Shown piece by piece: positions 1 to 55,378 of a stretch of DNA of 56,729 nucleotides (position 1 is the stretch's first letter; every line of letters begins with the position of its first letter). Source of the stretch: a virus. Taxonomy: Duplodnaviria > Caudoviricetes. Made by a program: the position numbers and the translations under genes. Under the pieces are notes generated by a model. It was not told where the DNA came from. It made no database searches and saw only the letters and a program-made list of their open reading frames with translations. The DNA is taken from positions 1 through 56,729 of IMG/VR virus record IMGVR_UViG_3300031885_000016; one strand, given 5' to 3'.

Positions 1-63
1 CGGAAGTCTTGATCGCCAATGGTTTTGGTTACGACGCCTAGTTTAGTTGTACATTAGGCGTTT

Positions 64-136
64 GACCTCGTAGCTCAGTCGGTAGAGCAACGGACTTTTA
101 ATCCGTGGGTCGTGAGTTCAAGTCTCACCGGGGTCA
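64..136 (+). tRNA. trnK: tRNA-Lys(UUU), no encoded CCA
   Basis: Full cloverleaf: acceptor GACCTCG/CGGGGTC+A, D arm GCTC/GAGC, anticodon arm ACGGA-CTTTTAA-TCCGT, T arm GTGAG-TTCAAGT-CTCAC. Confidence 0.95.
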
Positions 137-150
137 CTTAGGAGAAAACA

Positions 151-300
151 ATGAGTTTCTTTACATATTGCGAAAAGGTTTCTGGTTTTCTGGGGATTAA
201 GTTGGTGCTGGACAACATTCATGTTATCCATCGCAACTGGGCGCAGAACAAAACTGTTGGGGAGACTGCTGAGGCACTTCGCACTAAGAACAAAGTTTAG
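151..300 (+). CDS. Hypothetical 49-aa protein (paralog of 3668-3835)
   Basis: AGGAG RBS and ATG; stop is the TAG inside the motif. Paralog differs mostly at synonymous sites. Confidence 0.8.
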   Translation: MSFFTYCEKVSGFLGIKLVLDNIHVIHRNWAQNKTVGETAEALRTKNKV

Positions 301-319
301 TTGTACATTGGAGGGCAGG

Positions 320-541
320 ATGAGCAACTACTTCTTGAAACTTTGGGTGACTAGTGATCTTACTTATCAAGTCGCCAATCTTGAAACGGCTGAGACAGCC
401 GAATTTACTGACATTGAAAAGGTGTTAGAATTTTGTGGCGTGGCATTGAACCGATTTAAGTCGGTGGGTTGGGATGGTTACAGGATGGTTCAAGAAAAGA
501 TCGGGGAGAATAGCTGGTGGGTGTTGCCTTATCTTGGTTAG
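320..541 (+). CDS. Hypothetical cassette protein
   Basis: GGAGG RBS directly after motif; stop overlaps next motif. Confidence 0.75.
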   Translation: MSNYFLKLWVTSDLTYQVANLETAETAEFTDIEKVLEFCGVALNRFKSVGWDGYRMVQEKIGENSWWVLPYLG

Positions 542-566
542 TTTAGTTGTACATTGGAGGTATACC

Positions 567-824
567 ATGAGCATTAAAGTTCAAAACATTCCGACGTTGT
601 ATAAGCCACGGGGTGCGGTGTCATTGCCAGACAATCGAGATTGGACGAATCGTTTTGAGATTCGATCTGAGACATCTGATCGGATTTATATTATCGCCCA
701 GCACATTAACCATCGGCACTGGGGATGTTCCTGCCCGGCATGGAAGATTCGACGATCTTGCAAGCATTTGAAAACAGTGGGTTTGCCTACTGGGGAAGTT
801 CCTTATGAAGTCAATCTTAAATAA
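567..824 (+). CDS. SWIM zinc-finger protein
   Basis: WGCSCPAWKIRRSCKHL fits CxCx(n)CxH; GGAGG RBS. Confidence 0.8.
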   Translation: MSIKVQNIPTLYKPRGAVSLPDNRDWTNRFEIRSETSDRIYIIAQHINHRHWGCSCPAWKIRRSCKHLKTVGLPTGEVPYEVNLK

Positions 825-942
825 GATTTTCAATCTGGATGCTGATCCACAAGATTTGAATCTTCAATTCATGTTGGCGATGGCAATATGCATCCTGACC
901 CCTATGGGGATACTGTTTTATTTTTTTGGATAGGGGGCCAAT

Positions 943-1122
943 ATGACTAATGAAGAACTGCTTAGAGCGATTCGAGAAAACAGAGAGAAGCTAGAGCTTC
1001 TTGTGCAGGCAATGGAACGACATAAGAAACGCCGGTGGTGGAATCAGTTGGTTCAATACCTATCCATATTGCTTGGAATTATTGTTGGTCAATTGGCGTT
1101 CAAGTTCTGGATGGCTAGTTAA
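943..1122 (+). CDS. Small protein with C-terminal TM helix (59 aa)
   Basis: MTNEELLRAI...SILLGIIVGQLAFKFWMAS; stop TAA inside motif copy 1118. Confidence 0.7.
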   Translation: MTNEELLRAIRENREKLELLVQAMERHKKRRWWNQLVQYLSILLGIIVGQLAFKFWMAS

Positions 1123-1141
1123 GTTGTACATTGGAGCATTC

Positions 1142-1456
1142 ATGGAAACCAAAAAGAAGAAACGTGGATTCTTGGATGGCTATAAGAAGTATGATACTTC
1201 TAATGGGTTTGGGAATCGTCAAGAGTGGATGAATGCTTTTTATGCTCGGCTTGGATTTGAGCAGGCCCTTGAGGTATTGGGGGAGGATGATCCTCTGGTA
1301 TTGTTTGGTTTGAAAGCTGATGCGACGTGGGCGGATGTATCTGCTAGATGGCGGGAGTTGGCTGTGAAGCATCATCCTGATAAGGGTGGCGATCCTGTTG
1401 TGTTTAAGAAATACGGTGCGGCATTTGAGGTATTGGAAAGGCGGTATGGCAAATGA
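1142..1456 (+). CDS. J-domain (DnaJ-like) protein
   Basis: WRELAVKHHPDKGGDP contains the HPD J-domain signature; GGAG RBS after motif. Confidence 0.85.
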   Translation: METKKKKRGFLDGYKKYDTSNGFGNRQEWMNAFYARLGFEQALEVLGEDDPLVLFGLKADATWADVSARWRELAVKHHPDKGGDPVVFKKYGAAFEVLERRYGK

Positions 1457-1761
1457 TTAAAGCCAAGATTCATTCTGACGATTATGTGTTTGAATATGAA
1501 TTTGACGGCACACCTTGGTTCAAAGAGGCCAGCTTAGAGGATTTGCATCGGTTGTATGCTGAGGGCTGGTGTAGTTGCATTGAAGCCGATCAAGTGGCAA
1601 TTGAGGCCAGTAATGGTCCTATGACCGAAGAAACCGAGAATATCAAATTCCTTATTGATTACTGCCAGCGTAAAGGCGAGGGATTTGAGGTTGAGATTGA
1701 TGAGTTATCGGTTTTGGGTTGGCTTAAGTCTAACCGTCCTGATGTCTTGCTAGAAGTTTAG
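1453..1761 (+). CDS. Acidic hypothetical protein
   Basis: ATGA overlap with the J-domain gene; ends EV-stop in motif. Confidence 0.75.
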   Translation: MIKAKIHSDDYVFEYEFDGTPWFKEASLEDLHRLYAEGWCSCIEADQVAIEASNGPMTEETENIKFLIDYCQRKGEGFEVEIDELSVLGWLKSNRPDVLLEV

Positions 1762-1804
1762 TTGTACATTGTGTGATTGTCTCAAATCAAACAAGGAGAA
1801 AATC

Positions 1805-3389: not shown

Positions 3390-3546
3390 TCCGATTTCAA
3401 AAAAGCAGATTGAACAATTGCGAGAGCAAGTGAAGTTGCAGGCGGCTTATATTCGGTTTCTGGAGCAAGGATTGTCTGCTGCTCAAGATAAAGAGTTTAA
3501 TCGCAAGGTCGAAGCTGGAGAGCTTGATTACGCTAAGGGCTGCTAG
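3379..3546 (+). CDS. Small coiled-coil protein
   Basis: GGAGG RBS; stop overlaps motif 3546. Confidence 0.65.
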   Translation: MKIDPISKKQIEQLREQVKLQAAYIRFLEQGLSAAQDKEFNRKVEAGELDYAKGC

Positions 3547-3560
3547 TTTAGTTGTACACT

Positions 3561-3654
3561 GACCTCGTAGCTCAGTTGGTAGAGCAACGGACTTCCGCTG
3601 TTGAAACAGCATGAATTAATCCGTGGGTCGTGAGTTCAAGTCTCACCGGGGTCA
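3561..3654 (+). tRNA. tRNA-Lys-derived gene with 21-nt insertion in the anticodon loop (intron-containing, decoy or pseudo-tRNA)
   Basis: Identical to 64-136 except one D-loop base and the insert CCGCTGTTGAAACAGCATGAA (3595-3615) between U34 and U35. Confidence 0.8.
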
Positions 3655-3667
3655 CTAGGAGAAAACA

Positions 3668-3835
3668 ATGAGTTTCTTTAAATACTGCGAAAAGGTTTCT
3701 GGTTTTCTGGGGATTAAGTTGGTGCTGGATAACATTCATGTTATTCATCGCAATTGGGCACAAAACAAAACAGTTAGTGAAACTGTTGGGAATCTAATGC
3801 TGGAAAAACTGGAGAGAAATCAGGAGAAAGTATGA
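3668..3835 (+). CDS. Hypothetical 55-aa protein (paralog of 151-300)
   Basis: MSFFKYCEKVSGFLGIKLVLDNIHVIHRNWAQNKTV...; AGGAG RBS. Confidence 0.8.
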   Translation: MSFFKYCEKVSGFLGIKLVLDNIHVIHRNWAQNKTVSETVGNLMLEKLERNQEKV

Positions 3836-4017
3836 AAGACGCTTTAATTATGGGTGGTGCAGTTCTTGGTGTGCTGTGCCTGATTGCCTTAGTGGTATCA
3901 GTGGTTATTGCGATCTTTCCTTTCTTGGTTGCAATTGCTGGTGTCGTTATCATATGGAGAATTGTCCTTTGTGTGATAAGTGGCACGCCGTTTTTTACTG
4001 GGAAGTTGCCGTGGTAG
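3832..4017 (+). CDS. Small membrane protein
   Basis: Highly hydrophobic, ATGA overlap, stop overlaps motif. Confidence 0.75.
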   Translation: MKDALIMGGAVLGVLCLIALVVSVVIAIFPFLVAIAGVVIIWRIVLCVISGTPFFTGKLPW

Positions 4018-12170: not shown

Positions 12171-12351
12171 AAAACAAGTCAAAGCTCTGCACAATGGTGA
12201 TGAGGTATTCTGGAATGATCCCGCTGAGGGAACTTGCAGTAAATACATAACCATTCAATCTATTTGGGTTGGCGATGGTAGTGATCCGATTGTCAAAATC
12301 ACTGGCAAAGACGGCAGTGATCTGGAGTGTTGGGCTCATGAGCTAAGTTAA
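12163..12351 (+). CDS. Small SH3-like hypothetical protein
   Basis: LHNGDEVFWNDP...ECWAHELS; stop inside motif. Confidence 0.65.
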   Translation: MNRKQVKALHNGDEVFWNDPAEGTCSKYITIQSIWVGDGSDPIVKITGKDGSDLECWAHELS

Positions 12352-29918: not shown

Positions 29919-30530
29919 TTACTCCACAGTGATATCCATAGAAACTGTGACTTTGAAGCTTGGAATTCTTAAATGGTTCACGATATTGTGTTTTTTAGCT
30001 TCTTTGGCATCGAGATACCAATTAGCATGACCTTTACCATGAATAATATCTAGAAAATAATCTGGTTTATGGCCGCAGTTGGTGGCCATTAATCTAAAGA
30101 TTTGATTATGCAGTTTATCGGTTTGTTTGGCACTAGCTTTTAATTCTTCGTTTTTTCCACCATGCATGGAAGAAACATCATGAATCATGACAGTGGAATT
30201 AGGACCAGCAAATCTCAAACCTTCTGCCCCGCATGTCAGCAATACAGAGCCGCATGACATGGCTTTGCCCATACAAATAGTTGCGACTGGTAGTTTCGAG
30301 GCATTAATTTCATCGATCATTGAAATTAATGTATAAACTTGTCCGCCATAGGAATCGACTACAATGGGAATGATGGGTTGCCCAGTATTATGGGCACGAT
30401 TCATTTGTTCTGCGAATTCTTTTGCATCTTTTTCGTCGAATTCAGAGCAACGAATGACAATTGGCAATTCTAATAATTCTGCAACGGATTTATATTTAAT
30501 TTTGGAATCAATTTCGCAAATTCTCTTCAC
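29919..30530 (-). CDS. clpP: ClpP-family protease
   Basis: VDSYGGQV, GKAMSCGSVLL (catalytic Ser), TVMIHD (His), WYLDAKEA. Confidence 0.9.
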   Translation of the reverse strand: MKRICEIDSKIKYKSVAELLELPIVIRCSEFDEKDAKEFAEQMNRAHNTGQPIIPIVVDSYGGQVYTLISMIDEINASKLPVATICMGKAMSCGSVLLTCGAEGLRFAGPNSTVMIHDVSSMHGGKNEELKASAKQTDKLHNQIFRLMATNCGHKPDYFLDIIHGKGHANWYLDAKEAKKHNIVNHLRIPSFKVTVSMDITVE

Positions 30531-30614
30531 AATGTTTTCCTATGAGCAAATGGTGATAATTAATTAACGCAGGGAGATTTTGCCATAATTGCAATTTTAT
30601 TGCAATACAAATTT

Positions 30615-30962
30615 TTAAGATGGTTCTTTGATGCTGCCATCGATGAATTCGAAGACGGCAAAACGAAACCAATTATCTGGCAATCTGATATATTCAGCAG
30701 GATTTGGGATATTGTGAGTTGTGTCTAGATGATTGCCATCAAATACCAAATAATTATGCTGATTTGGTATTTGGGCGAAGAATTTAACTCGATTTGAGAG
30801 CAAAAGTTTGTTTTTTAATTCTTTATCTGGATAGGTTTCAAATTTCATATCGACTGTGGCGACATATCCTCCATCGAACAAAAACGGCGCTAGTTTGCCA
30901 TCATGTGTGGGTTTTAGGTGCGACATTTCCAAGTATGATTTGAAGTTTAGATTAATATCCAT
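30615..30962 (-). CDS. Hypothetical protein with N-terminal FKSYLE motif
   Basis: MDINLNFKSYLE. Confidence 0.75.
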   Translation of the reverse strand: MDINLNFKSYLEMSHLKPTHDGKLAPFLFDGGYVATVDMKFETYPDKELKNKLLLSNRVKFFAQIPNQHNYLVFDGNHLDTTHNIPNPAEYIRLPDNWFRFAVFEFIDGSIKEPS

Positions 30963-30969
30963 ATTCTAT

Positions 30970-31617
30970 TTAAACCAAATCAATTGGATTTTCCAAAACA
31001 AAATCTTGTTTCCAGGCATAAACATTTGGTTTTATGAAGCAATTAATCTTAAATGTGTTTCCTGACATGTTGAAATTAGCTTGACGGCTGGGGTCTTTTA
31101 CGATTTTGGCTTCTCCGTCTTCTGTATATGCGAAATTATCACCTGATTTGATTAATGCTAAAACTAGTTTTTTAGACTTATCAATAGTTTCTTGGACATT
31201 TCTAATTCTAATTACGCAACCATTATTGCTTGTAGAAATGAGATATTGTGCTTTGCATTTCATATCTTTTCCTGTAAATGCTGCATCTCCCATATCTTCG
31301 AATGTGCTGATTAGATTTCGGTGCCAGGGTTTTACGGCTTCCCAGAGGATATCATTACCGGAAGTGTTTTTTCTGGCTTTAATTTGAAAGGGGATTTTGG
31401 TTTCGCCGATGATCCAGCCATCTATTCCGTCGTATTTATCTTGTTCATCGGTAGCTGGTTCGATTTCCCAGTTTAATTCTGTGATTAATTTTTCACGAAT
31501 ATTGTTTTCGACAATTGCACCGGCTTTAATTCTGGATTTATAATCGGCGGTATCATCGAATGGTTGGTGTGGTGATCCTAAACCACCGAATTCTCCGAAA
31601 GTTGCGTTGTATGTCAC
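30970..31617 (-). CDS. Hypothetical protein, possible PD-(D/E)XK nuclease fold
   Basis: E...QDKYDGIDGW...FQIKAR. Confidence 0.5.
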   Translation of the reverse strand: MTYNATFGEFGGLGSPHQPFDDTADYKSRIKAGAIVENNIREKLITELNWEIEPATDEQDKYDGIDGWIIGETKIPFQIKARKNTSGNDILWEAVKPWHRNLISTFEDMGDAAFTGKDMKCKAQYLISTSNNGCVIRIRNVQETIDKSKKLVLALIKSGDNFAYTEDGEAKIVKDPSRQANFNMSGNTFKINCFIKPNVYAWKQDFVLENPIDLV

Positions 31618-31635
31618 ATTGTTCCTGGGGTTTGG

Positions 31636-31663
31636 TTCACAAACGAAATATCTGTGGTATAAT
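31636..31663 (+). promoter_or_regulatory. Sigma70-like promoter
   Basis: TTCACA-16 nt-TATAAT with extended TG. Confidence 0.55.
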
Positions 31664-31712
31664 ATTTAGATGGCCTGTTTCTAAAAATGGGCTGTAATTG
31701 AATAACTAAGAG

Positions 31713-32450
31713 ATGAAACTGAATTTTAGAAATTGGTTGGAAGAAACGATGTCAGGCTATAATCGGCTATGTGTATATGATTTCGACGGTACTTTGGCGA
31801 ATGTTCCAGAGAAGCCATCGGATTGGGCGGGTAAAGATTGGTGGGGTCATTCTGATTCTCTTTCTGAGCCGCATTATGATGGCGGTGTTAACCATGAAGT
31901 GGTTAATGCGATGAAGCGAGATAATGCTGATCCGCATTCTAGGGTCATTTTATTAACTGGTCGTCGTGGCGTCATTGCTCACAGCGTAAGAAATGTTCTT
32001 CGTAATCAGGGATTATATGGCAAAAGAGCCATTCCTGATAGCAACAAGAATGTTCAACAGCGATTCCAGGGCAATGTAGAGGCTGGTCATGATGTGATTC
32101 ATCCTGATGAACACAAAGGTCATGAGGAATTTTACAGTGGAGATCATTCTACGGAAGATGATTATCCAAAAACTCAGAAGGGCAAGGCGGATGGTTCAAC
32201 TTTAGCTCATAAGATTTATCGAGTTAATAAAGAAATGACGCCTGATGTTGAAGTTTTGGAGTTTTGGGATGATCGGGCTGACCACATTCCTCATTTTATT
32301 GAGTTGGGGCTTCAATTGTTGAAGCAATATGGTGTGGATCATGGTGGTAAGCTTCAGAAAGTGATTATGCATCGGGTTTATCCGCCTGCAATGCCGGGTG
32401 GTCAGGGTGTGGTTCAACACATTCCTATTAAACCTGGAATGTCTTATTAA
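31713..32450 (+). CDS. HAD-family phosphatase (RNA-repair/PNKP-phosphatase-like)
   Basis: VYDFDGTL, LLTGR, FWDDR. Confidence 0.8.
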   Translation: MKLNFRNWLEETMSGYNRLCVYDFDGTLANVPEKPSDWAGKDWWGHSDSLSEPHYDGGVNHEVVNAMKRDNADPHSRVILLTGRRGVIAHSVRNVLRNQGLYGKRAIPDSNKNVQQRFQGNVEAGHDVIHPDEHKGHEEFYSGDHSTEDDYPKTQKGKADGSTLAHKIYRVNKEMTPDVEVLEFWDDRADHIPHFIELGLQLLKQYGVDHGGKLQKVIMHRVYPPAMPGGQGVVQHIPIKPGMSY

Positions 32451-32511
32451 GTATAAATCCCCTATTATTAAAGCTAGATAAATTTAGCTTTGATTTTTTA
32501 GGGGATTTTTT

Positions 32512-32817
32512 ATGCGTAATTCTCGTTTTAGAGAGGCAGCTAGCTTTTTAAAGAAGCATGCCGGGATTGAACATCCAATATATATTCGCCGCACAAAAAT
32601 GACATCTAATCTAGATGGTCTTTGTCAATTTAAAGACGATCATTTCTTAATCAAAGTAAATCAATTACTTAACGAAGATCACTCTATTGATGTATTGCTG
32701 CATGAGGTCGGGCATGCTATGTCTTGGGATAAAGACAAAGATGTGCATGGACGTAATTGGGGAATAGCTTACAGCAAGATTTATCGTAAGTTTTTAGATG
32801 ATTTCTTAAATAGGTGA
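32512..32817 (+). CDS. HExxH zinc metalloprotease-like protein (SprT-like)
   Basis: VLLHEVGHA...HGRNW. Confidence 0.75.
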   Translation: MRNSRFREAASFLKKHAGIEHPIYIRRTKMTSNLDGLCQFKDDHFLIKVNQLLNEDHSIDVLLHEVGHAMSWDKDKDVHGRNWGIAYSKIYRKFLDDFLNR

Positions 32818-33638
32818 AAATGCAATATTTTGTCAGCATAGAAAACACAGCTTATCATCTCTGGCAAGCTGAATTATTAGTTGAGAGTTTTAAATATCAT
32901 AAGTTAGAAGATGATTTGTTGGTTGTTATTGCTGACAATCAAACTCCTACTTACACAGCGTATAAAAACAATCTAATAAATCACAAGAATAAGTTTGTTG
33001 TGCCTAATTTTGGCAAAGCATTCAATAAAATTCGTTCTGTGATGTGGGCTTTGGAAGAGGGTCATCTTAAAAAACCATTTGTTTTATTGCATCCAGATAT
33101 GGTTTTACAAAAACCGATTCCCCAAAAAAACAACAGCATTGTTTTCAATCAAGAAAACAATCAAGCTTTGAAGAAAAAGTTAGCTGGATATTTAAAAAAA
33201 TGTTTAATTGCTCAAGAGTCTGAGTGGTTTTTATGGATGCCACTGGGAAGTACGCTAATATTCAATGACGATGTGCCGGATATCTTTTTTACGCATGTTT
33301 GCGAAGAAATTTATCCTTTGATGAAAGAATTTGGACAAGATTGTAATTTAGAGTCGTTTGCTTGGGTAACTGCCATTTACAAACACATTCTATTTAAAAA
33401 TAAATTTAAGTTAACGGTGTGTGCTGATAATTTAGAGCAGACGATGATAGATCACAATACAACGAACAATATCATTCACTACAAGCATGGGATTCCACCA
33501 GCTTTTAGCAAACATCATTTCAGATATGAATCGCCAATTATGTTGAACACACAAAGTCCATTTGAATGTATTATTGAAAACAATGTTACATCTTCAACGA
33601 ATTTTGTGTGTAATTTAATTACTCATTATTTGGCTTAA
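32814..33638 (+). CDS. GT-A glycosyltransferase-like protein (HPAT/serine galactosyltransferase-like)
   Basis: WQAELLVESF, FNKIRSV, LLHPDMV, IIHY resemble motifs of that family. Confidence 0.5.
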   Translation: MKMQYFVSIENTAYHLWQAELLVESFKYHKLEDDLLVVIADNQTPTYTAYKNNLINHKNKFVVPNFGKAFNKIRSVMWALEEGHLKKPFVLLHPDMVLQKPIPQKNNSIVFNQENNQALKKKLAGYLKKCLIAQESEWFLWMPLGSTLIFNDDVPDIFFTHVCEEIYPLMKEFGQDCNLESFAWVTAIYKHILFKNKFKLTVCADNLEQTMIDHNTTNNIIHYKHGIPPAFSKHHFRYESPIMLNTQSPFECIIENNVTSSTNFVCNLITHYLA

Positions 33639-35148
33639 GCCGAGACATGTATTTTTCTTTTTCCATATCTCCAATAACTTGCGATCTTGCTTCTGGTGGT
33701 AGGGCTCCAGAGTGTTTGCATGCATCGCACCCATGACCTTTGCATTTAGGGCAAACGTTTTTACCTGCTTTTTGTGCATCGTCCCAAGTAACAGATCTTT
33801 GATGATCTGCGAAGGCATTTACTTGATTGCTCCACCAAGGTCTGCGATGTTTGTTGGTGCCTTTGACCTTAAACATTTCAACCCAATCTCTGATTTGTTG
33901 ATTTGTTAGGCCGGTGCCTTCTTTGCCACGCATGAAATCAGGCAGCTTGTCTGGCGTGAATTCTTTTAATTTAAGCAAGAACAAGACTGCTCTTCTTTCT
34001 TGAACGGTCCAGCCTGTATTTTTATCTTCCATACCTTCACGACGAGAAGGAGCCAATGCCTCACCGACTTTGTCGATGGGATTGTGTTGCAGCAACCAAG
34101 CTAGGGCTAGTGCTTTATCTTTTTGTTCTGAAATCTCCATTGGGACGCCATTTGGAGGATCGAACACAATACCTGGGAACACTTTTTCTAGCAATCCAGT
34201 ACGTTTGTAAATTGAAATATATCGTTTGGTGTCAACATCGGGGCTCAGCAAGCCTTTTAAGAATTCATCACGAATTCTTTCTAGGGCTACTTTTTCCATA
34301 TTTCTGAATTTTGGAATGGCCTTTTCGATATCTTCATGCATATTTGAGCCTTGTCCAAATCGACAATGGAATCTAATGGCTCTTAAAACTCTTATTTTAT
34401 CTTCTGTAAATCGATCATCGGCTTTTCCTACGGTTTGCACGACTTTATTTTTGGCATCATGCAAGCCTTTTCCGGTAGGATCATAGAGTTTGCTATTTTC
34501 TCCATCGGATTTAGTAAGTTCGATGTACATTGCATTGATGGTTAGATCTCTACGGCTAGCATCGCCATGTGGATTATCTACGAAATCTACAGCGGCAGCA
34601 CCATCGGTGACCTTGGCATCTTTACGAAAAGTAGCGATTTCGAATTCTTCGCCATCAACGACGGCAGAAATTACGAAAGCTTTACCATCTGCGGAGGCGT
34701 CTCTACCTTTAACGAACCAATATTTATTATCGCCTTTTTGATGTCTAGGAGGGTTAAAGGTTAGATCAAGGGGCTTGCCAGATTTTCCGGCACGTTCATC
34801 AGCCATTGAGAAACCACTGGCCGATAAGATGTGTCCAATTTGTTCTGGCGTGGCGTTTGTTGCTAGATCGTAATCTTTGATTGATCTGCCGGTTAGAAAA
34901 TCACGAACGGGACCGCCAACCAAGAACAATGATTTTTTTGGCATGGTTGGGGCCTTGCCAGTATCATTGGTGAGTTTAATATCTCCGCTTTTCAAGAAAG
35001 CTTCGATAACAGGACGCATTTTACTAGGTGGGATAAATCCTTTCTCTAGTTGGACAAATCCTTTACGCCAATCCTTGTTTTCTTGATTTTCTTGATTTGG
35101 GTCGGCTTCCTCTTTGAGGTTACGCCATTCTTTAAAAGTTTTTCTCAT
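33619..35148 (-). CDS. cca: CCA-adding enzyme / class II tRNA nucleotidyltransferase
   Basis: LVGGPVRD, DYDLAT, EIATFRKD, RRDLTINAM, EDKIRVLRAIRF. Confidence 0.9.
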   Translation of the reverse strand: MRKTFKEWRNLKEEADPNQENQENKDWRKGFVQLEKGFIPPSKMRPVIEAFLKSGDIKLTNDTGKAPTMPKKSLFLVGGPVRDFLTGRSIKDYDLATNATPEQIGHILSASGFSMADERAGKSGKPLDLTFNPPRHQKGDNKYWFVKGRDASADGKAFVISAVVDGEEFEIATFRKDAKVTDGAAAVDFVDNPHGDASRRDLTINAMYIELTKSDGENSKLYDPTGKGLHDAKNKVVQTVGKADDRFTEDKIRVLRAIRFHCRFGQGSNMHEDIEKAIPKFRNMEKVALERIRDEFLKGLLSPDVDTKRYISIYKRTGLLEKVFPGIVFDPPNGVPMEISEQKDKALALAWLLQHNPIDKVGEALAPSRREGMEDKNTGWTVQERRAVLFLLKLKEFTPDKLPDFMRGKEGTGLTNQQIRDWVEMFKVKGTNKHRRPWWSNQVNAFADHQRSVTWDDAQKAGKNVCPKCKGHGCDACKHSGALPPEARSQVIGDMEKEKYMSRLKPNNE

Positions 35149-35175
35149 ATTGTATCTAGACCTTTAATAAGCAGA

Positions 35176-35763
35176 TTATTCTTCATCAGCGGCATTTGTA
35201 AGCCGTAGTTTATCAGTTAGTTTGCTGACCAATCCAAATTTATAAATGATTCGGATTGAGTTTTCTTTTTCACCGGACTCATATTGAATTTGAACAGGTT
35301 TTTGAGAAATGTCCACCCCTGCTTTGCTGCCAGCTTTAACAACATCGGACATTTTTCTGATTTTTTCCAGACCAGCTTGGGCCAAATTATCCAAAACAGA
35401 GTGATCTTCATCATCTTCGCCATTGTATTGTGTGTCATGAACCACAATGAAATCCTTGCCATCGTTGAAGGATTTGGTCAGTGGATCAAAAAAGCTGTGA
35501 TAACCAGAGCCATAGACGGGGAATCCGGCTCCCATTCTTTTTCTAAAAACATTTCCCATACCTGCTATCACATCGCTACCCACCCGAGCGGGGAGTGAGG
35601 GTTGGTTGCCTTTGTGGAATCCGTAACCCCAACGCACATCTCTCCAACCGGCATATCGTTTTCCCTGAGGTGTACTTTGTAAATATCTACCTGGAGCATC
35701 TCGGATTGTACTTGCAGCTTTATCGCTGGCTTCTAATAACCAAGTTTTAAAATTTAAAATCAT
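35176..35763 (-). CDS. Hypothetical protein with N-terminal FKTWLLE motif
   Basis: MILNFKTWLLE. Confidence 0.75.
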   Translation of the reverse strand: MILNFKTWLLEASDKAASTIRDAPGRYLQSTPQGKRYAGWRDVRWGYGFHKGNQPSLPARVGSDVIAGMGNVFRKRMGAGFPVYGSGYHSFFDPLTKSFNDGKDFIVVHDTQYNGEDDEDHSVLDNLAQAGLEKIRKMSDVVKAGSKAGVDISQKPVQIQYESGEKENSIRIIYKFGLVSKLTDKLRLTNAADEE

Positions 35764-54376: not shown

Positions 54377-55378
54377 ATGAATACATTAATAAAAAACAAT
54401 CAGAAATTTATCGTATCTTCCAAACAAATGGAAATAATTAGCGGTTCTTTATTGGGAGATGCTTGGATATATGCTGTCAAGGGGCACGATAATTGGGCTT
54501 GTAAATTTGGCAAAACACAATCTTTAAAAGATTGTAAAGGAAAAGATAAAATATCCTACATGCAATGGACTTGGAATGAATTGCTTCCTTTTTCAAATTC
54601 TATATCTAAATCTAAATTATCCTATCAATTTGTCACCTATACAGATGAATGTTTTACAAAATTAGAGCGAAGTTGGTATCTTCGACGAGAAAATGGAGAT
54701 TATGTTTTAAATCACAACAATCAACGAAAGAAAATTGTTCCAATTGATTTAAAATTAACGCCACTAATTTTGTGTGTGTGGCACATGGATGATGGGTCGG
54801 TCTATGCGAAAGATGCAAACCTTACACTAGAAACACAAGGATTCGCACTTGCTGAGGTAGATTTTTTAATTGACCGTTTGAAAGAAGACCTTGACATCAA
54901 AGCAACTAAAAAGAAAGCTAAAAAAGATGATCAATTTAGGATATATGTGGGTCGCAAATCTTATTTTGATTTTATTGATATAATTAAACCACATGTTCAA
55001 TGGGATTGTTTTAAATATAAAATTGATGATATCACTTATAATAAAATTGAACAGATAGGCGAAAATCACTCGCAATCAAAAATCAGCGAAACAAATGCCA
55101 AAGAAATATTTAGTCTCCGAGATCAAGGCTTGCTTCACAGGGAAATAGCAGAAAGGTTTAAAGTTAGTCAGGCAAGTGTAACGCAAATTCTTAATGGAAA
55201 AAGATGGGGACATCTAAATAAATGTATAGTTCCGAGGACAGTTAAAAGAATGTCTGAGGAGCAAAAAAACAAAGTAAAAACAATGTTGAAGCAAAATATA
55301 TCGCAAAAGGCAATAGCCGAAGAACTCGGTATTAATCAAAGTACAGTTAGTCGCATAGGAGAAAAATGCCAAGAATAG
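54377..55378 (+). mobile_element. Free-standing LAGLIDADG homing endonuclease with C-terminal HTH domains
   Basis: ISGSLLGDAWI and WHMDDGS motifs; two HTH-like segments (REIAERFKVSQASV, KAIAEELGINQSTVS). Confidence 0.85.

What the first reader, a model, noticed from the sequence alone, without database searches (positions are those of the whole stretch)
3561..3654. Second tRNA-Lys copy carries a 21-nt hairpin inserted in the middle of the anticodon
Seen: relative to the intact copy (64-136), CCGCTGTTGAAACAGCATGAA (hairpin GCTGTT-GA-AACAGC) lies between U34 and U35, while the rest of the tRNA is almost unchanged. Precise removal restores UUU; removal as a 37/38 intron would instead give a UCC (Gly) anticodon on a Lys body. 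Known: tRNA-Lys(UUU) is the target of the anticodon nuclease PrrC, which cuts at the wobble position. Inference: a tiny protein-spliced intron, a nuclease-resistant decoy or reserve tRNA, or an uncharged tRNA mimic.
Basis: partly seen in the sequence, partly recalled or inferred. Interest (0 to 1): 0.8.

Follow-up and report, generated by a model that had tools for sequence, protein, structure and literature searches.

The report
Phage tRNA-Lys with hairpin inside anticodon
A fragment of a very large phage carries two lysine tRNA genes, one of them split in the middle of its anticodon by a 21-base hairpin, an example of the still unexplained short inserts seen in huge-phage tRNA genes.

Summary
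Copy 2 (3561-3654) is the intact tRNA-Lys(UUU) (64-136) with one D-loop change and 21 extra bases (3595-3615) placed uniquely between U34 and U35. It still scores as a tRNA (61.5 bits) and folds as a cloverleaf with a longer anticodon arm. Contigs from 4 of 4 sediment runs carry the insert unchanged, so it is not an assembly artefact.

The window is about 11% of a huge tailed phage. Each tRNA copy follows a 13-base early promoter-like motif and precedes a paralogous small ORF. The only relative found, L258, keeps copy 1 but has another gene at the copy 2 site. The insert therefore shows no conservation beyond one lineage.

Short inserts in anticodon loops recur in other phage contigs and were reported as "enigmatic introns" in Lak megaphages (PMC6784885). 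This insert differs in sitting inside the anticodon. It has no bulge-helix-bulge motif. No splicing endonuclease or RNA ligase was found in the 11% available, and no RNA data exist.

Best reading is an intron-like insert removed after transcription (0.35). Rivals are a recently disabled copy (0.30) and an unspliced tRNA-like RNA (0.25).

The parts
41..53 (+). 13-base early promoter-like motif GTTTAGTTGTACA in front of tRNA copy 1
   Evidence: 42 matches at up to 1 mismatch, all on the + strand within 1-21016; 0 of 100 shuffles reach that count. Motif contexts are listed.
64..136 (+). Intact tRNA-Lys(UUU), copy 1; no CCA encoded
   Evidence: ARAGORN; Rfam tRNA 75.1 bits; cloverleaf MFE -26.8 kcal/mol.
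151..300 (+). Small ORF (49 aa) downstream of copy 1, paralogue of 3668-3835
   Evidence: No family hit in PHROGs or PADLOC.
3546..3558 (+). The same 13-base motif, exact match, 2 bases upstream of tRNA copy 2
3561..3654 (+). tRNA-Lys copy 2 carrying the insert
   Evidence: Rfam tRNA 61.5 bits with a 24-base loop insertion. The cloverleaf is kept, MFE -32.9 kcal/mol, z -2.52. The body matches copy 1 at 72 of 73 bases.
3595..3615 (+). 21-base insert between U34 and U35; hairpin 3597-3610
   Evidence: Unique in the window. Absent from the other 261 loci held and from viral contigs as an exact 28-mer.
3668..3835 (+). Small ORF (55 aa) downstream of copy 2
   Evidence: Over the first 36 codons against copy 1, 7 of 36 third positions differ but only 1 of 72 first and second positions, which indicates purifying selection.
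3832..4017 (+). 61-aa hydrophobic ORF, last gene of the cassette, with a terminator-like hairpin at 3971-3998
31713..32450 (+). HAD-type protein with a DFDGT motif, resembling the phosphatase part of polynucleotide kinase (possible RNA end healing)
   Evidence: phrog_415 'polynucleotide kinase', E 4.2e-08. Pfam HAD_SAK_1, E 0.0029, below the cut-off. Sequence. No NCBIfam or PDB hit. The AlphaFold2 model was unusable.
33619..35148 (-). tRNA nucleotidyltransferase (CCA-adding family)
   Evidence: Pfam PolyA_pol 8.4e-24; phrog_2244 1.5e-42; NCBIfam CCA families, below equivalog cut-offs.

Best explanation
Copy 2 is a second, lineage-specific tRNA-Lys(UUU) cassette in the early region of a huge tailed phage. 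Its anticodon loop holds a mini-intron-like hairpin insert of the kind found in other huge-phage tRNA genes.

The proposed mechanism has three steps, and all three are inferred, none shown. First, the cassette is transcribed from its own early promoter-like motif, together with the two small ORFs behind it. Second, the pre-tRNA folds as a normal cloverleaf whose anticodon stem continues into a weak 3-bp helix (U33 U34 C / G A A) and then the 5-bp hairpin. Third, a protein endonuclease of phage or host cuts after U34 and after the last A of the insert, and an RNA repair-type ligase joins the ends. The phage CCA-adding enzyme then completes the 3' end.

The product would be a tRNA-Lys(UUU) identical to copy 1 except for U17. 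It would serve the AAA-rich late genes, or replace host tRNA-Lys if that is attacked.

What is shown is the anatomy, the preserved fold, the conserved body, the intact promoter-like motif, and the recurrence of such inserts in other phages.
For: 1. Removing exactly the 21 bases restores a 7-base loop identical to copy 1.

2. The tRNA body differs at 1 of 73 bases. Third codon positions of the adjacent paralogous ORF differ at 7 of 36 (Fisher p = 0.0017). The body was therefore under constraint for most of the time since the two copies split.

3. The insert lies in the anticodon loop and forms a hairpin that few random sequences match (92 of 5000 shuffles). The cloverleaf is retained (Rfam 61.5 bits).

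4. The 13-base motif in front of copy 2 is an exact match, and the downstream ORF is under purifying selection. The unit therefore looks live.

5. The phenomenon recurs. Of these, 75 have the extra bases inside an intact anticodon stem. 54 of the 75 are Tyr-like with the insert after position 37, and 21 are others with inserts of 14-33 bases.

6. Lak-like tRNA arrays L230 and L240 show the same tRNA with and without an insert, for Arg(UCU), Lys(UUU) and Thr(UGU). This matches the Lak report (PMC6784885).

7. Other phage arrays carry inserts at non-canonical places next to intact tRNAs of the same anticodon. L157 has Phe(GAA) with an insert at 34/35 or 35/36. L226 has a Phe gene with an insert.

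8. In 401 Planctomycetota genomes the same pattern matched in 2, and neither match is an anticodon-loop insert.

9. The window encodes a CCA-adding enzyme and a HAD protein resembling polynucleotide kinase/phosphatase.

10. G404, the one complete genome among the insert-bearing phages searched (362 kb, terminal repeats), has two PF09414 RNA ligase matches at 95.1 and 41.5 bits.

11. Late genes use AAA 562 times against AAG 186.
Against: - No RNA evidence of any kind is available.
- Protein-catalysed tRNA splicing is not established in bacteria or their phages (my knowledge). The searches returned only the Lak report for short phage tRNA introns.
- No bulge-helix-bulge motif brackets the 34/35 junctions. 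Six strict motif hits were found and none excises the insert.
- The 2-base 3' stagger of the two junctions across the UUC/GAA helix is not shared by the Lak inserts, so no common rule for cutting emerges.
- RtcB, PF09414, PF09511 and EndA were found in 0 of 3 records (G000, G001, G002). These records are only 11, 13 and 26% complete, and the PF09511 control matched nothing anywhere.
- EndA and RtcB are also absent from the complete genome G404.
- The insert has no conservation beyond one lineage. All copies seen are identical. The one relative found, L258, has another gene at that site.
- Copy 1 makes copy 2 dispensable.
- The conserved body does not date the insertion, which could be recent.
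Confidence: 0.35

Rival explanations
1. Copy 2 is a recently disabled gene. A 21-base insertion hit a redundant second tRNA-Lys gene. The RNA, if made, cannot be charged or decode. It persists only because it lies between a promoter and a small ORF that is still selected.
For: An intact copy exists 3.5 kb away. The insert is seen in one lineage only and in identical form. The related phage L258 lacks the whole cassette. No splicing machinery was found. There is no bulge-helix-bulge motif. With 1 change in 73 bases, the insertion could date from any time in roughly the last half of the period since duplication without conflicting with the data (my estimate from the counts).
Against: A random insertion would fall in the 7-base loop in about 1 case in 9, and would fold this well in about 2 cases in 100. 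Neither arm of the hairpin pre-exists in the intact loop, so a local snap-back copy does not explain the insert. Similar inserts recur in other phage tRNA genes, often beside an intact tRNA of the same anticodon. No further decay is visible: 72 of 73 bases are kept, all stems are intact, and the Rfam score is 61.5 bits.
Confidence: 0.3
2. The RNA is functional but never spliced. It would be a tRNA-shaped RNA with a long anticodon arm. It could serve as a decoy or sponge for a tRNA-Lys-specific defence nuclease or tRNA-binding protein. Alternatively it could be a processing or stabilising element at the 5' end of the mRNA for the small ORFs, released by RNase P and RNase Z.
For: The cloverleaf and all tRNA body elements are kept. 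The tRNA starts 2 bases after the motif and ends 13 bases before the ORF start. [quoted passage not shown] That phage tRNAs evade such nucleases through anticodon-loop changes has been proposed (PMC10264068, seen only as a listing and the start of the abstract).
Against: A mere processing signal would not need 72 of 73 bases kept, including loop bases. A decoy has to resemble the target's anticodon loop, and the insert interrupts that loop. No defence or anti-defence family matched the neighbouring ORFs. There is no precedent in the papers searched.
Confidence: 0.25
3. The insert changes the anticodon. Excision one to three bases further 3' would give a tRNA with anticodon UCU (Arg, AGA) or UCC (Gly) on a Lys body.
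For: ARAGORN in intron mode calls tRNA-Arg(tct) with a 21-base intron. Loops CUUCUAA and CUUCCAA are ordinary Arg(UCU) and Gly(UCC) loops; the Lak Arg loop is an example. A relaxed canonical-type arrangement would cut at 37/38. It consists of a 3-base bulge UAA next to the anticodon stem and then CUUC/GAAU with 3 of 4 pairs. AGA makes up 149 of 376 Arg codons in the late genes.
Against: The body is a Lys body: A73, U20, acceptor stem G1-C72, A2-U71, C3-G70. By the known identity rules (recalled, not tested here) it lacks A20 for ArgRS and lacks U73 and C2-G71 for GlyRS. LysRS needs U35. The product would probably remain uncharged.
Confidence: 0.05
4. The insert is an assembly or chimera artefact.
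For: None found.
Against: Independent Logan contigs from 4 of 4 runs laid, which the tool attributes to 4 different studies, carry the insert together with its specific upstream flank and without differences.
Confidence: 0.01

Closest known systems
'Enigmatic' short introns in tRNA genes of Lak megaphages (Devoto et al. 2019, PMC6784885; passages read)
   Same: Both are short inserts in the anticodon loop of tRNA genes of a very large phage. The rest of the tRNA is unchanged, copies with and without the insert exist, and no mechanism is known. Lak-like arrays in my own survey (L230, L240, L136) show inserts of 12-29 bases.
   Different: In the pairs I could align, the Lak inserts sit at or next to 37/38, whereas this one sits inside the anticodon at 34/35. 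Lak inserts were reported as identical across cohorts and genomes. This one is confined to a single lineage, and a relative lacks the cassette. This phage is unrelated to Lak: its GC content is 36-49% against the 26% reported for Lak. The paper's Supplementary Table 6, which lists the intron sequences, could not be seen.
Archaeal tRNA introns at non-canonical positions, cut at a bulge-helix-bulge motif by EndA and joined by RtcB (review PMC4090602, seen only as a listing and the start of the abstract; motif definition recalled)
   Same: Both are short, protein-spliced introns that can lie at places other than 37/38, including within the anticodon loop.
   Different: No bulge-helix-bulge motif brackets the junctions. 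EndA and RtcB were not found. The gene context is bacterial in type: tail genes, ClpP, a class II CCA enzyme and Shine-Dalgarno sites. The first 48 bases of the tRNA are identical to a Lacipirellulaceae (Planctomycetota) tRNA-Lys.
Bacterial group I introns in tRNA anticodon loops (preprint 10.1101/2020.01.27.920355, seen only as a listing and the start of the abstract; the 34/35 site of the cyanobacterial tRNA-Leu(UAA) intron is recalled)
   Same: Both occur in a bacterial setting, lie in the anticodon loop, and have a U before the 5' junction. The recalled tRNA-Leu case shares the 34/35 position.
   Different: 21 bases cannot hold a ribozyme core. Rfam finds nothing but tRNA here. The insert ends in A, not G.
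Phage tRNA-Lys as counter-defence: T5 tRNA-Lys against PARIS (PMC11464382, passages read); T4 repair of PrrC-cut tRNA-Lys by Pnkp and Rnl1 (recalled)
   Same: A phage carries its own tRNA-Lys(UUU) among early genes. The same window holds a CCA-adding enzyme and a HAD protein resembling the Pnkp phosphatase.
   Different: The known cases rely on point changes in the anticodon stem-loop or on repair of a cut, not on an insert. No kinase or ligase was found here, and no nuclease is known for the unidentified host.

Membership tests
tRNA gene (Rfam RF00005) | Cloverleaf with acceptor, D, anticodon and T arms, scoring above the family threshold | tested here: met
   61.5 bits against a gathering score of 29, with the insert treated as a loop insertion. 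The MFE structure is a cloverleaf.
tRNA gene (Rfam RF00005) | 7-base anticodon loop presenting three contiguous anticodon bases | tested here: not met
   The loop region is 28 bases, and U34 and U35 are separated by 21 bases.
Protein-spliced tRNA intron of archaeal/eukaryal type | Bulge-helix-bulge motif (3-base bulges either side of a 4-bp helix) with the cuts in the bulges | tested here: not met
   A scan of the 94-base precursor gave 6 strict hits, none of which removes the insert. The only arrangement in the anticodon arm is a relaxed one with a single proper bulge, and it would cut at 37/38 to give UCC. The scanner found the motif planted in its self-test.
Protein-spliced tRNA intron of archaeal/eukaryal type | Intron at 37/38 (canonical) | tested here: not met
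   Alignment with the paralogue places the insert at 34/35.
Protein-spliced tRNA intron of archaeal/eukaryal type | EndA/Sen-family endonuclease and RtcB or Trl1-type ligase available | tested here: inconclusive
   PF01974 was found in 0 of 3 records, PF01139 in 0 of 3 and PF09414 in 0 of 3. The records are only 11-26% complete and the host is unknown.
Group I intron in tRNA | Ribozyme core, terminal G, U before the 5' splice site | tested here: not met
   The insert is 21 bases and gives no Rfam intron match at E up to 1. It ends in A. Only the U at -1 is present.
Short inserts ('enigmatic introns') in huge-phage tRNA genes | Short insert within the anticodon loop of an otherwise intact tRNA gene on a large phage genome | tested here: met
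   a tailed-phage fragment estimated at 11% complete.
Short inserts ('enigmatic introns') in huge-phage tRNA genes | Insert conserved among related phage genomes | tested here: not met
   Identical copies occur in 4 runs, but there was no other holder in viral contigs or metagenome contigs. The relative L258 lacks the cassette.
Short inserts ('enigmatic introns') in huge-phage tRNA genes | Removal from the RNA | not testable with these tools
   No RNA run holds the stretch. As far as I read, removal has not been shown for the Lak inserts either.
tRNA pseudogene | Loss of constraint: substitutions that break stems or conserved bases | tested here: not met
   1 change in 73 bases against 7 of 36 neighbouring third codon positions. 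All stems are intact. This does not exclude a very recent loss of function.

The most novel reading that the evidence does not exclude
Phages of bacteria have a protein-based tRNA splicing route that needs neither a ribozyme nor a bulge-helix-bulge motif nor EndA. It would cut out hairpin mini-introns even from within the anticodon (34/35) and reseal the loop with an RNA repair-type ligase. The insert-bearing tRNA-Lys would then be a precursor that only the phage's own machinery can mature.
Probability: 0.25. Interest if true: 0.85.

Novelty: new variant of a known kind. Interest (0 to 1): 0.5.

Why it matters
Bacteria and their phages are thought to remove tRNA introns only by self-splicing group I ribozymes. 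Short inserts in huge-phage tRNA genes were noted once, in 2019, and I found no explanation for them in the papers searched.

This locus is a clean test case for three reasons. The same genome holds the tRNA with and without the insert, so the junction is unambiguous. The junction lies inside the anticodon, where mis-splicing by a single base would change the amino acid. And a single D-loop difference (U17 against C17) tags the products of the two genes, so a few RNA reads could prove or disprove splicing.

If it is spliced, it points to an unknown RNA cutting and joining activity in phage infection. If it is not, it is either a dead gene or a new kind of tRNA-shaped RNA.

Tried and rejected
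- **Finding relatives through the 13-base motif.** The scan returned 116 stretches, each with a single match. These are chance hits and were of no use.
- **Finding relatives through the 55-aa ORF in viral contigs.** None found.
- **Any 5-35 base insert between the same tRNA flanks in metagenome contigs.** 0 hits.
- **The same flanks with a 0-30 base gap in viral contigs.** 10 hits, all with no gap, all on unrelated phages: none carries the motif.
- **Exact insert in viral contigs and in all held loci.** 0 hits, apart from the window's own locus.
- **Relatives by a 441-aa structural protein.** Two records at 57% identity. One tRNA-Glu and no tRNA-Lys among them.
- **A 'hairpin followed by ATGAA' family.** L226 suggested it. 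A targeted scan gave 6 hits and only L226 resembles this insert. Dropped as coincidence.
- **RNase III-like geometry.** The two junctions are offset by 2 bases across the UUC/GAA helix. The Lak inserts do not share this, so I do not lean on it.
- **RNA evidence.** No RNA holder was listed.
- **Phages collection, blastn.** No match.
- **PDB sequence searches.** The MjaI-like protein and the HAD protein gave no hits, and the 274-aa protein gave only one insignificant match (E 0.41).
- **AlphaFold2 model of the HAD protein from a single sequence.** Mean pLDDT 36, unusable, so no fold search was run.
- **Family scans of neighbouring ORFs.** Pfam, PHROGs and PADLOC on neighbouring ORFs, plus NCBIfam on six ORFs of the 27-35 kb cluster, found no nuclease or ligase that could act on RNA.
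- **ARAGORN-only tRNA-like call in L258 (4003-4075, 6-base loop).** Rfam does not confirm it at E up to 0.01. Not used.
- **Host-type introns.** 2 of 401 Planctomycetota genomes match the long-tRNA pattern, and neither match is an anticodon-loop insert.
- **Earlier-findings tool.** Closed.

Full report
**What is there**

The window is a virus record of 56,729 bases that CheckV rates at 11% complete. It encodes baseplate and tail proteins, a RecD-like helicase, ClpP, a DNA methylase and a CCA-adding enzyme. It is therefore a fragment of a very large tailed phage.

ARAGORN and Rfam find two tRNA genes. Copy 1 (64-136) is a standard tRNA-Lys(UUU) scoring 75.1 bits. Copy 2 (3561-3654) has the same body with one D-loop change (C17 to T) and 21 extra bases, CCGCTGTTGAAACAGCATGAA, at 3595-3615. 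The loop reads CTT + insert + TTAA, and only that split restores the CTTTTAA of copy 1. The insertion therefore lies uniquely between U34 and U35.

Copy 2 still scores 61.5 bits as a tRNA. It folds into a cloverleaf whose anticodon stem continues through a 3-bp helix (UUC/GAA) into a 5-bp hairpin (GCUGU/ACAGC) closed by a UGAA loop. The insert folds better than all but 92 of 5000 shuffles and 122 of 5000 random window 21-mers. Neither copy encodes CCA.

**It is real DNA**

Five sediment-metagenome runs hold the stretch. I laid contigs of four of them, and all four cover the insert together with its specific upstream flank, without differences in the tRNA. X2 may be the source of the window. 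X3, X4 and X5 come from other studies. In X3 and X4, contigs of the copy 1 region are about two to three times deeper than those of the copy 2 region. This fits the second, related phage described below. No RNA run was listed, so expression is untested.

**Setting**

The 13-base word GTTTAGTTGTACA occurs 42 times at up to one mismatch. All occurrences are on the + strand within the first 21 kb, and 0 of 100 shuffles reach that count. With the variant GTTAATTTGTACA it stands in front of nearly every early gene, 10-40 bases before the ribosome-binding site. I read it as the promoter of a phage-specific polymerase. That is an inference; no sigma-70-like promoter lies near the tRNA.

Both tRNA copies follow an exact copy of this word, and both are followed 13-14 bases later by paralogous small ORFs of 49 and 55 aa. 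Over the first 36 codons the ORFs differ at 7 of 36 third positions but only 1 of 72 first and second positions, which indicates purifying selection. The tRNA bodies differ at 1 of 73 bases (Fisher p = 0.0017 against third positions). The tRNA body of copy 2 was therefore constrained for most of the time since the copies split. That does not date the insertion.

**Relatives**

Viral-contig and metagenome scans for the same tRNA flanks with any insert found nothing, and the exact insert also found nothing. The tools may leave out the window's own record.

A scan with the phage-specific 3' half of the tRNA found five loci, of which only L258 is a relative. L258 carries 9 copies of the motif. Its positions 1142-2932 equal window 1-1791 at 99.94% identity, and the rest is collinear at 76-91%.

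L258 has copy 1 unchanged. At the site of copy 2 the flanking genes are orthologous, at 54% and 66% amino-acid identity. Between them L258 has a 128-aa ORF in place of the tRNA and the two small ORFs. The left junction of the cassette falls at the first base of the tRNA.

Copy 2 is thus a lineage-specific cassette in a mosaic early region. The insert has no demonstrable conservation beyond one lineage.

**The wider class**

Devoto et al. 2019 reported up to four short introns per genome in tRNAs of Lak megaphages. They called them enigmatic and stated that introns in phage tRNAs had not been reported before (PMC6784885, passages read; the supplementary table could not be seen). My searches of the paper library found no later treatment. 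The main text of Al-Shayeb et al. 2020 does not contain the word intron.

I scanned viral contigs for tRNAs with one common D-arm and 13-33 extra bases before the T-loop. In 75 of them the extra bases lie inside an intact 5-bp anticodon stem:
- 54 are Tyr-like with the insert after position 37. Many of these are on giant-virus bins, which is the ordinary eukaryote-type case.
- 21 are others, with inserts of 14-33 bases.

Among the phage-type tRNA arrays:
- L230 and L240 look Lak-like. They show Arg(UCU), Lys(UUU) and Thr(UGU) genes with and without inserts at or next to 37/38.
- L157 lies on a complete 362-kb genome with terminal repeats. It has a Phe(GAA) gene with 17 bases at 34/35 or 35/36, beside two intact Phe genes.
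- L226 has a Phe gene with 22 bases near the start of the loop, beside an intact one.
- L177 has a Gly gene with 20 bases 5' of the anticodon.

In 401 Planctomycetota genomes the same pattern matched twice, and neither match is an anticodon-loop insert. That phylum was chosen because the first 48 bases of the tRNA equal those of a Lacipirellulaceae tRNA-Lys. Hairpin inserts at varied places in the anticodon loop, often beside an intact tRNA of the same anticodon, are therefore a recurring feature of large phages. This locus is one of them, with an unusually well-defined junction inside the anticodon.

**Mechanism**

I tested the known routes.
- **Group I intron.** Excluded by size and by Rfam.
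- **Archaeal/eukaryal route.** It needs a bulge-helix-bulge motif. A scan gave six strict hits, none of which removes the insert. The only arrangement in the anticodon arm is a relaxed one that would cut at 37/38 and leave UCC on a Lys body.
- **Enzymes.** EndA, RtcB and two RNA ligase families were found in 0 of 3 records of this phage group. Those records are 11-26% complete, and the PF09511 control matched nothing anywhere.
- **Other insert-bearing phages.** Three records could be searched and two were not held. The complete genome G404 has two PF09414 RNA ligase matches, but no RtcB and no EndA.

The two junctions here are offset by two bases across the UUC/GAA helix, as an RNase III-type cut would be (the enzyme's geometry is recalled). 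The Lak inserts do not share this. The window does hold a CCA-adding enzyme and, two genes away, a HAD protein with a DFDGT motif. That protein matches the PHROG family named polynucleotide kinase at E 4e-08, and a Pfam RNA-repair HAD family below threshold. This hints at RNA end healing and no more.

**Weighing**

Several things favour a selected, RNA-level feature. The insert is in the loop, it forms a hairpin, exact removal restores the loop, the body and promoter-like motif are intact, the downstream ORF is under selection, and the feature recurs across phages.

Several things count against a spliced intron. No machinery is known or was found, the insert is not conserved beyond one lineage, copy 1 makes copy 2 redundant, and there are no RNA data.

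My probabilities:

| Reading | Probability |
|---|---|
| Intron-like insert, removed to give tRNA-Lys(UUU) | 0.35 |
| Recently disabled copy | 0.30 |
| Unspliced functional tRNA-shaped RNA (decoy or mRNA 5' element) | 0.25 |
| Recoded anticodon (UCU or UCC) | 0.05 |
| Artefact | 0.01 |

Late genes use AAA three times as often as AAG (562 to 186), whereas early genes prefer AAG (63 AAA to 113 AAG). A phage tRNA-Lys(UUU) is therefore useful to the phage whatever the fate of copy 2. tRNA-Lys is also a documented target of defence nucleases (PMC11464382).

**Verdict**

This is a new variant (inside the anticodon, no known splice motif) of a known but unexplained kind. The U17/C17 difference between the two genes makes the question directly testable with RNA reads.

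Noticed in passing
window 41-21016, + strand: The word GTTTAGTTGTACA has 42 copies at up to 1 mismatch, and more with the variant GTTAATTTGTACA. It precedes nearly every early gene and often overlaps the stop codon of the gene before it. It is probably the promoter of a phage-specific RNA polymerase. Two copies stand in tandem at 12347 and 12372.
   Followed up: partly
window 1-21000 versus 21000-56729: The early region has 44-49% GC and prefers AAG (63 AAA to 113 AAG). The rest has 36-42% GC and prefers AAA (562 to 186) and AGA. The two parts of the genome make different demands on tRNAs.
   Followed up: partly
window 29919-35763: A gene cluster holds ClpP, an MjaI-like restriction-type nuclease (Pfam 27.3 bits), a HAD protein resembling polynucleotide kinase/phosphatase, a 274-aa protein with no family match, a CCA-adding enzyme and a 195-aa protein with no family match. 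It may be an RNA repair or tRNA maintenance module.
   Followed up: partly
window 54377-55378: A free-standing LAGLIDADG_2 homing endonuclease with a C-terminal helix-turn-helix domain lies among the tail and baseplate genes.
   Followed up: no
L251 4439-4512 (Lacipirellulaceae MAG): The first 48 bases of the phage tRNA-Lys are identical to this planctomycete tRNA-Lys(UUU); the T-arm and the acceptor 3' strand differ. This is a hint that the host is a planctomycete, and no more than a hint.
   Followed up: partly
L258 (22.5-kb metagenome contig): This is a mosaic relative. 1.8 kb is 99.94% identical to the window start, and the rest is 76-91% identical with gene replacements. Loose ends and contig depths in runs X3 and X4 match this second lineage, which co-occurs at about twice the depth.
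   Followed up: partly
L258 4003-4075: ARAGORN calls a tRNA-like gene with a 6-base anticodon loop directly before a motif copy. Rfam does not confirm it.
   Followed up: partly
L157 / G404 (complete 362-kb phage, terminal repeats): The genome has 46 tRNA-family matches. Some are 113 and 119 bases long. ARAGORN places a 486-base insertion in one tRNA-Gly and shorter inserts in Phe and Lys genes. The genome also has two RNA ligase (PF09414) genes.
   Followed up: partly
L214 4953-5369: Four consecutive tRNA genes (Asn, Glu, Thr, Tyr) all carry predicted inserts of 18-34 bases. The short-arm Tyr suggests a virus of eukaryotes.
   Followed up: no
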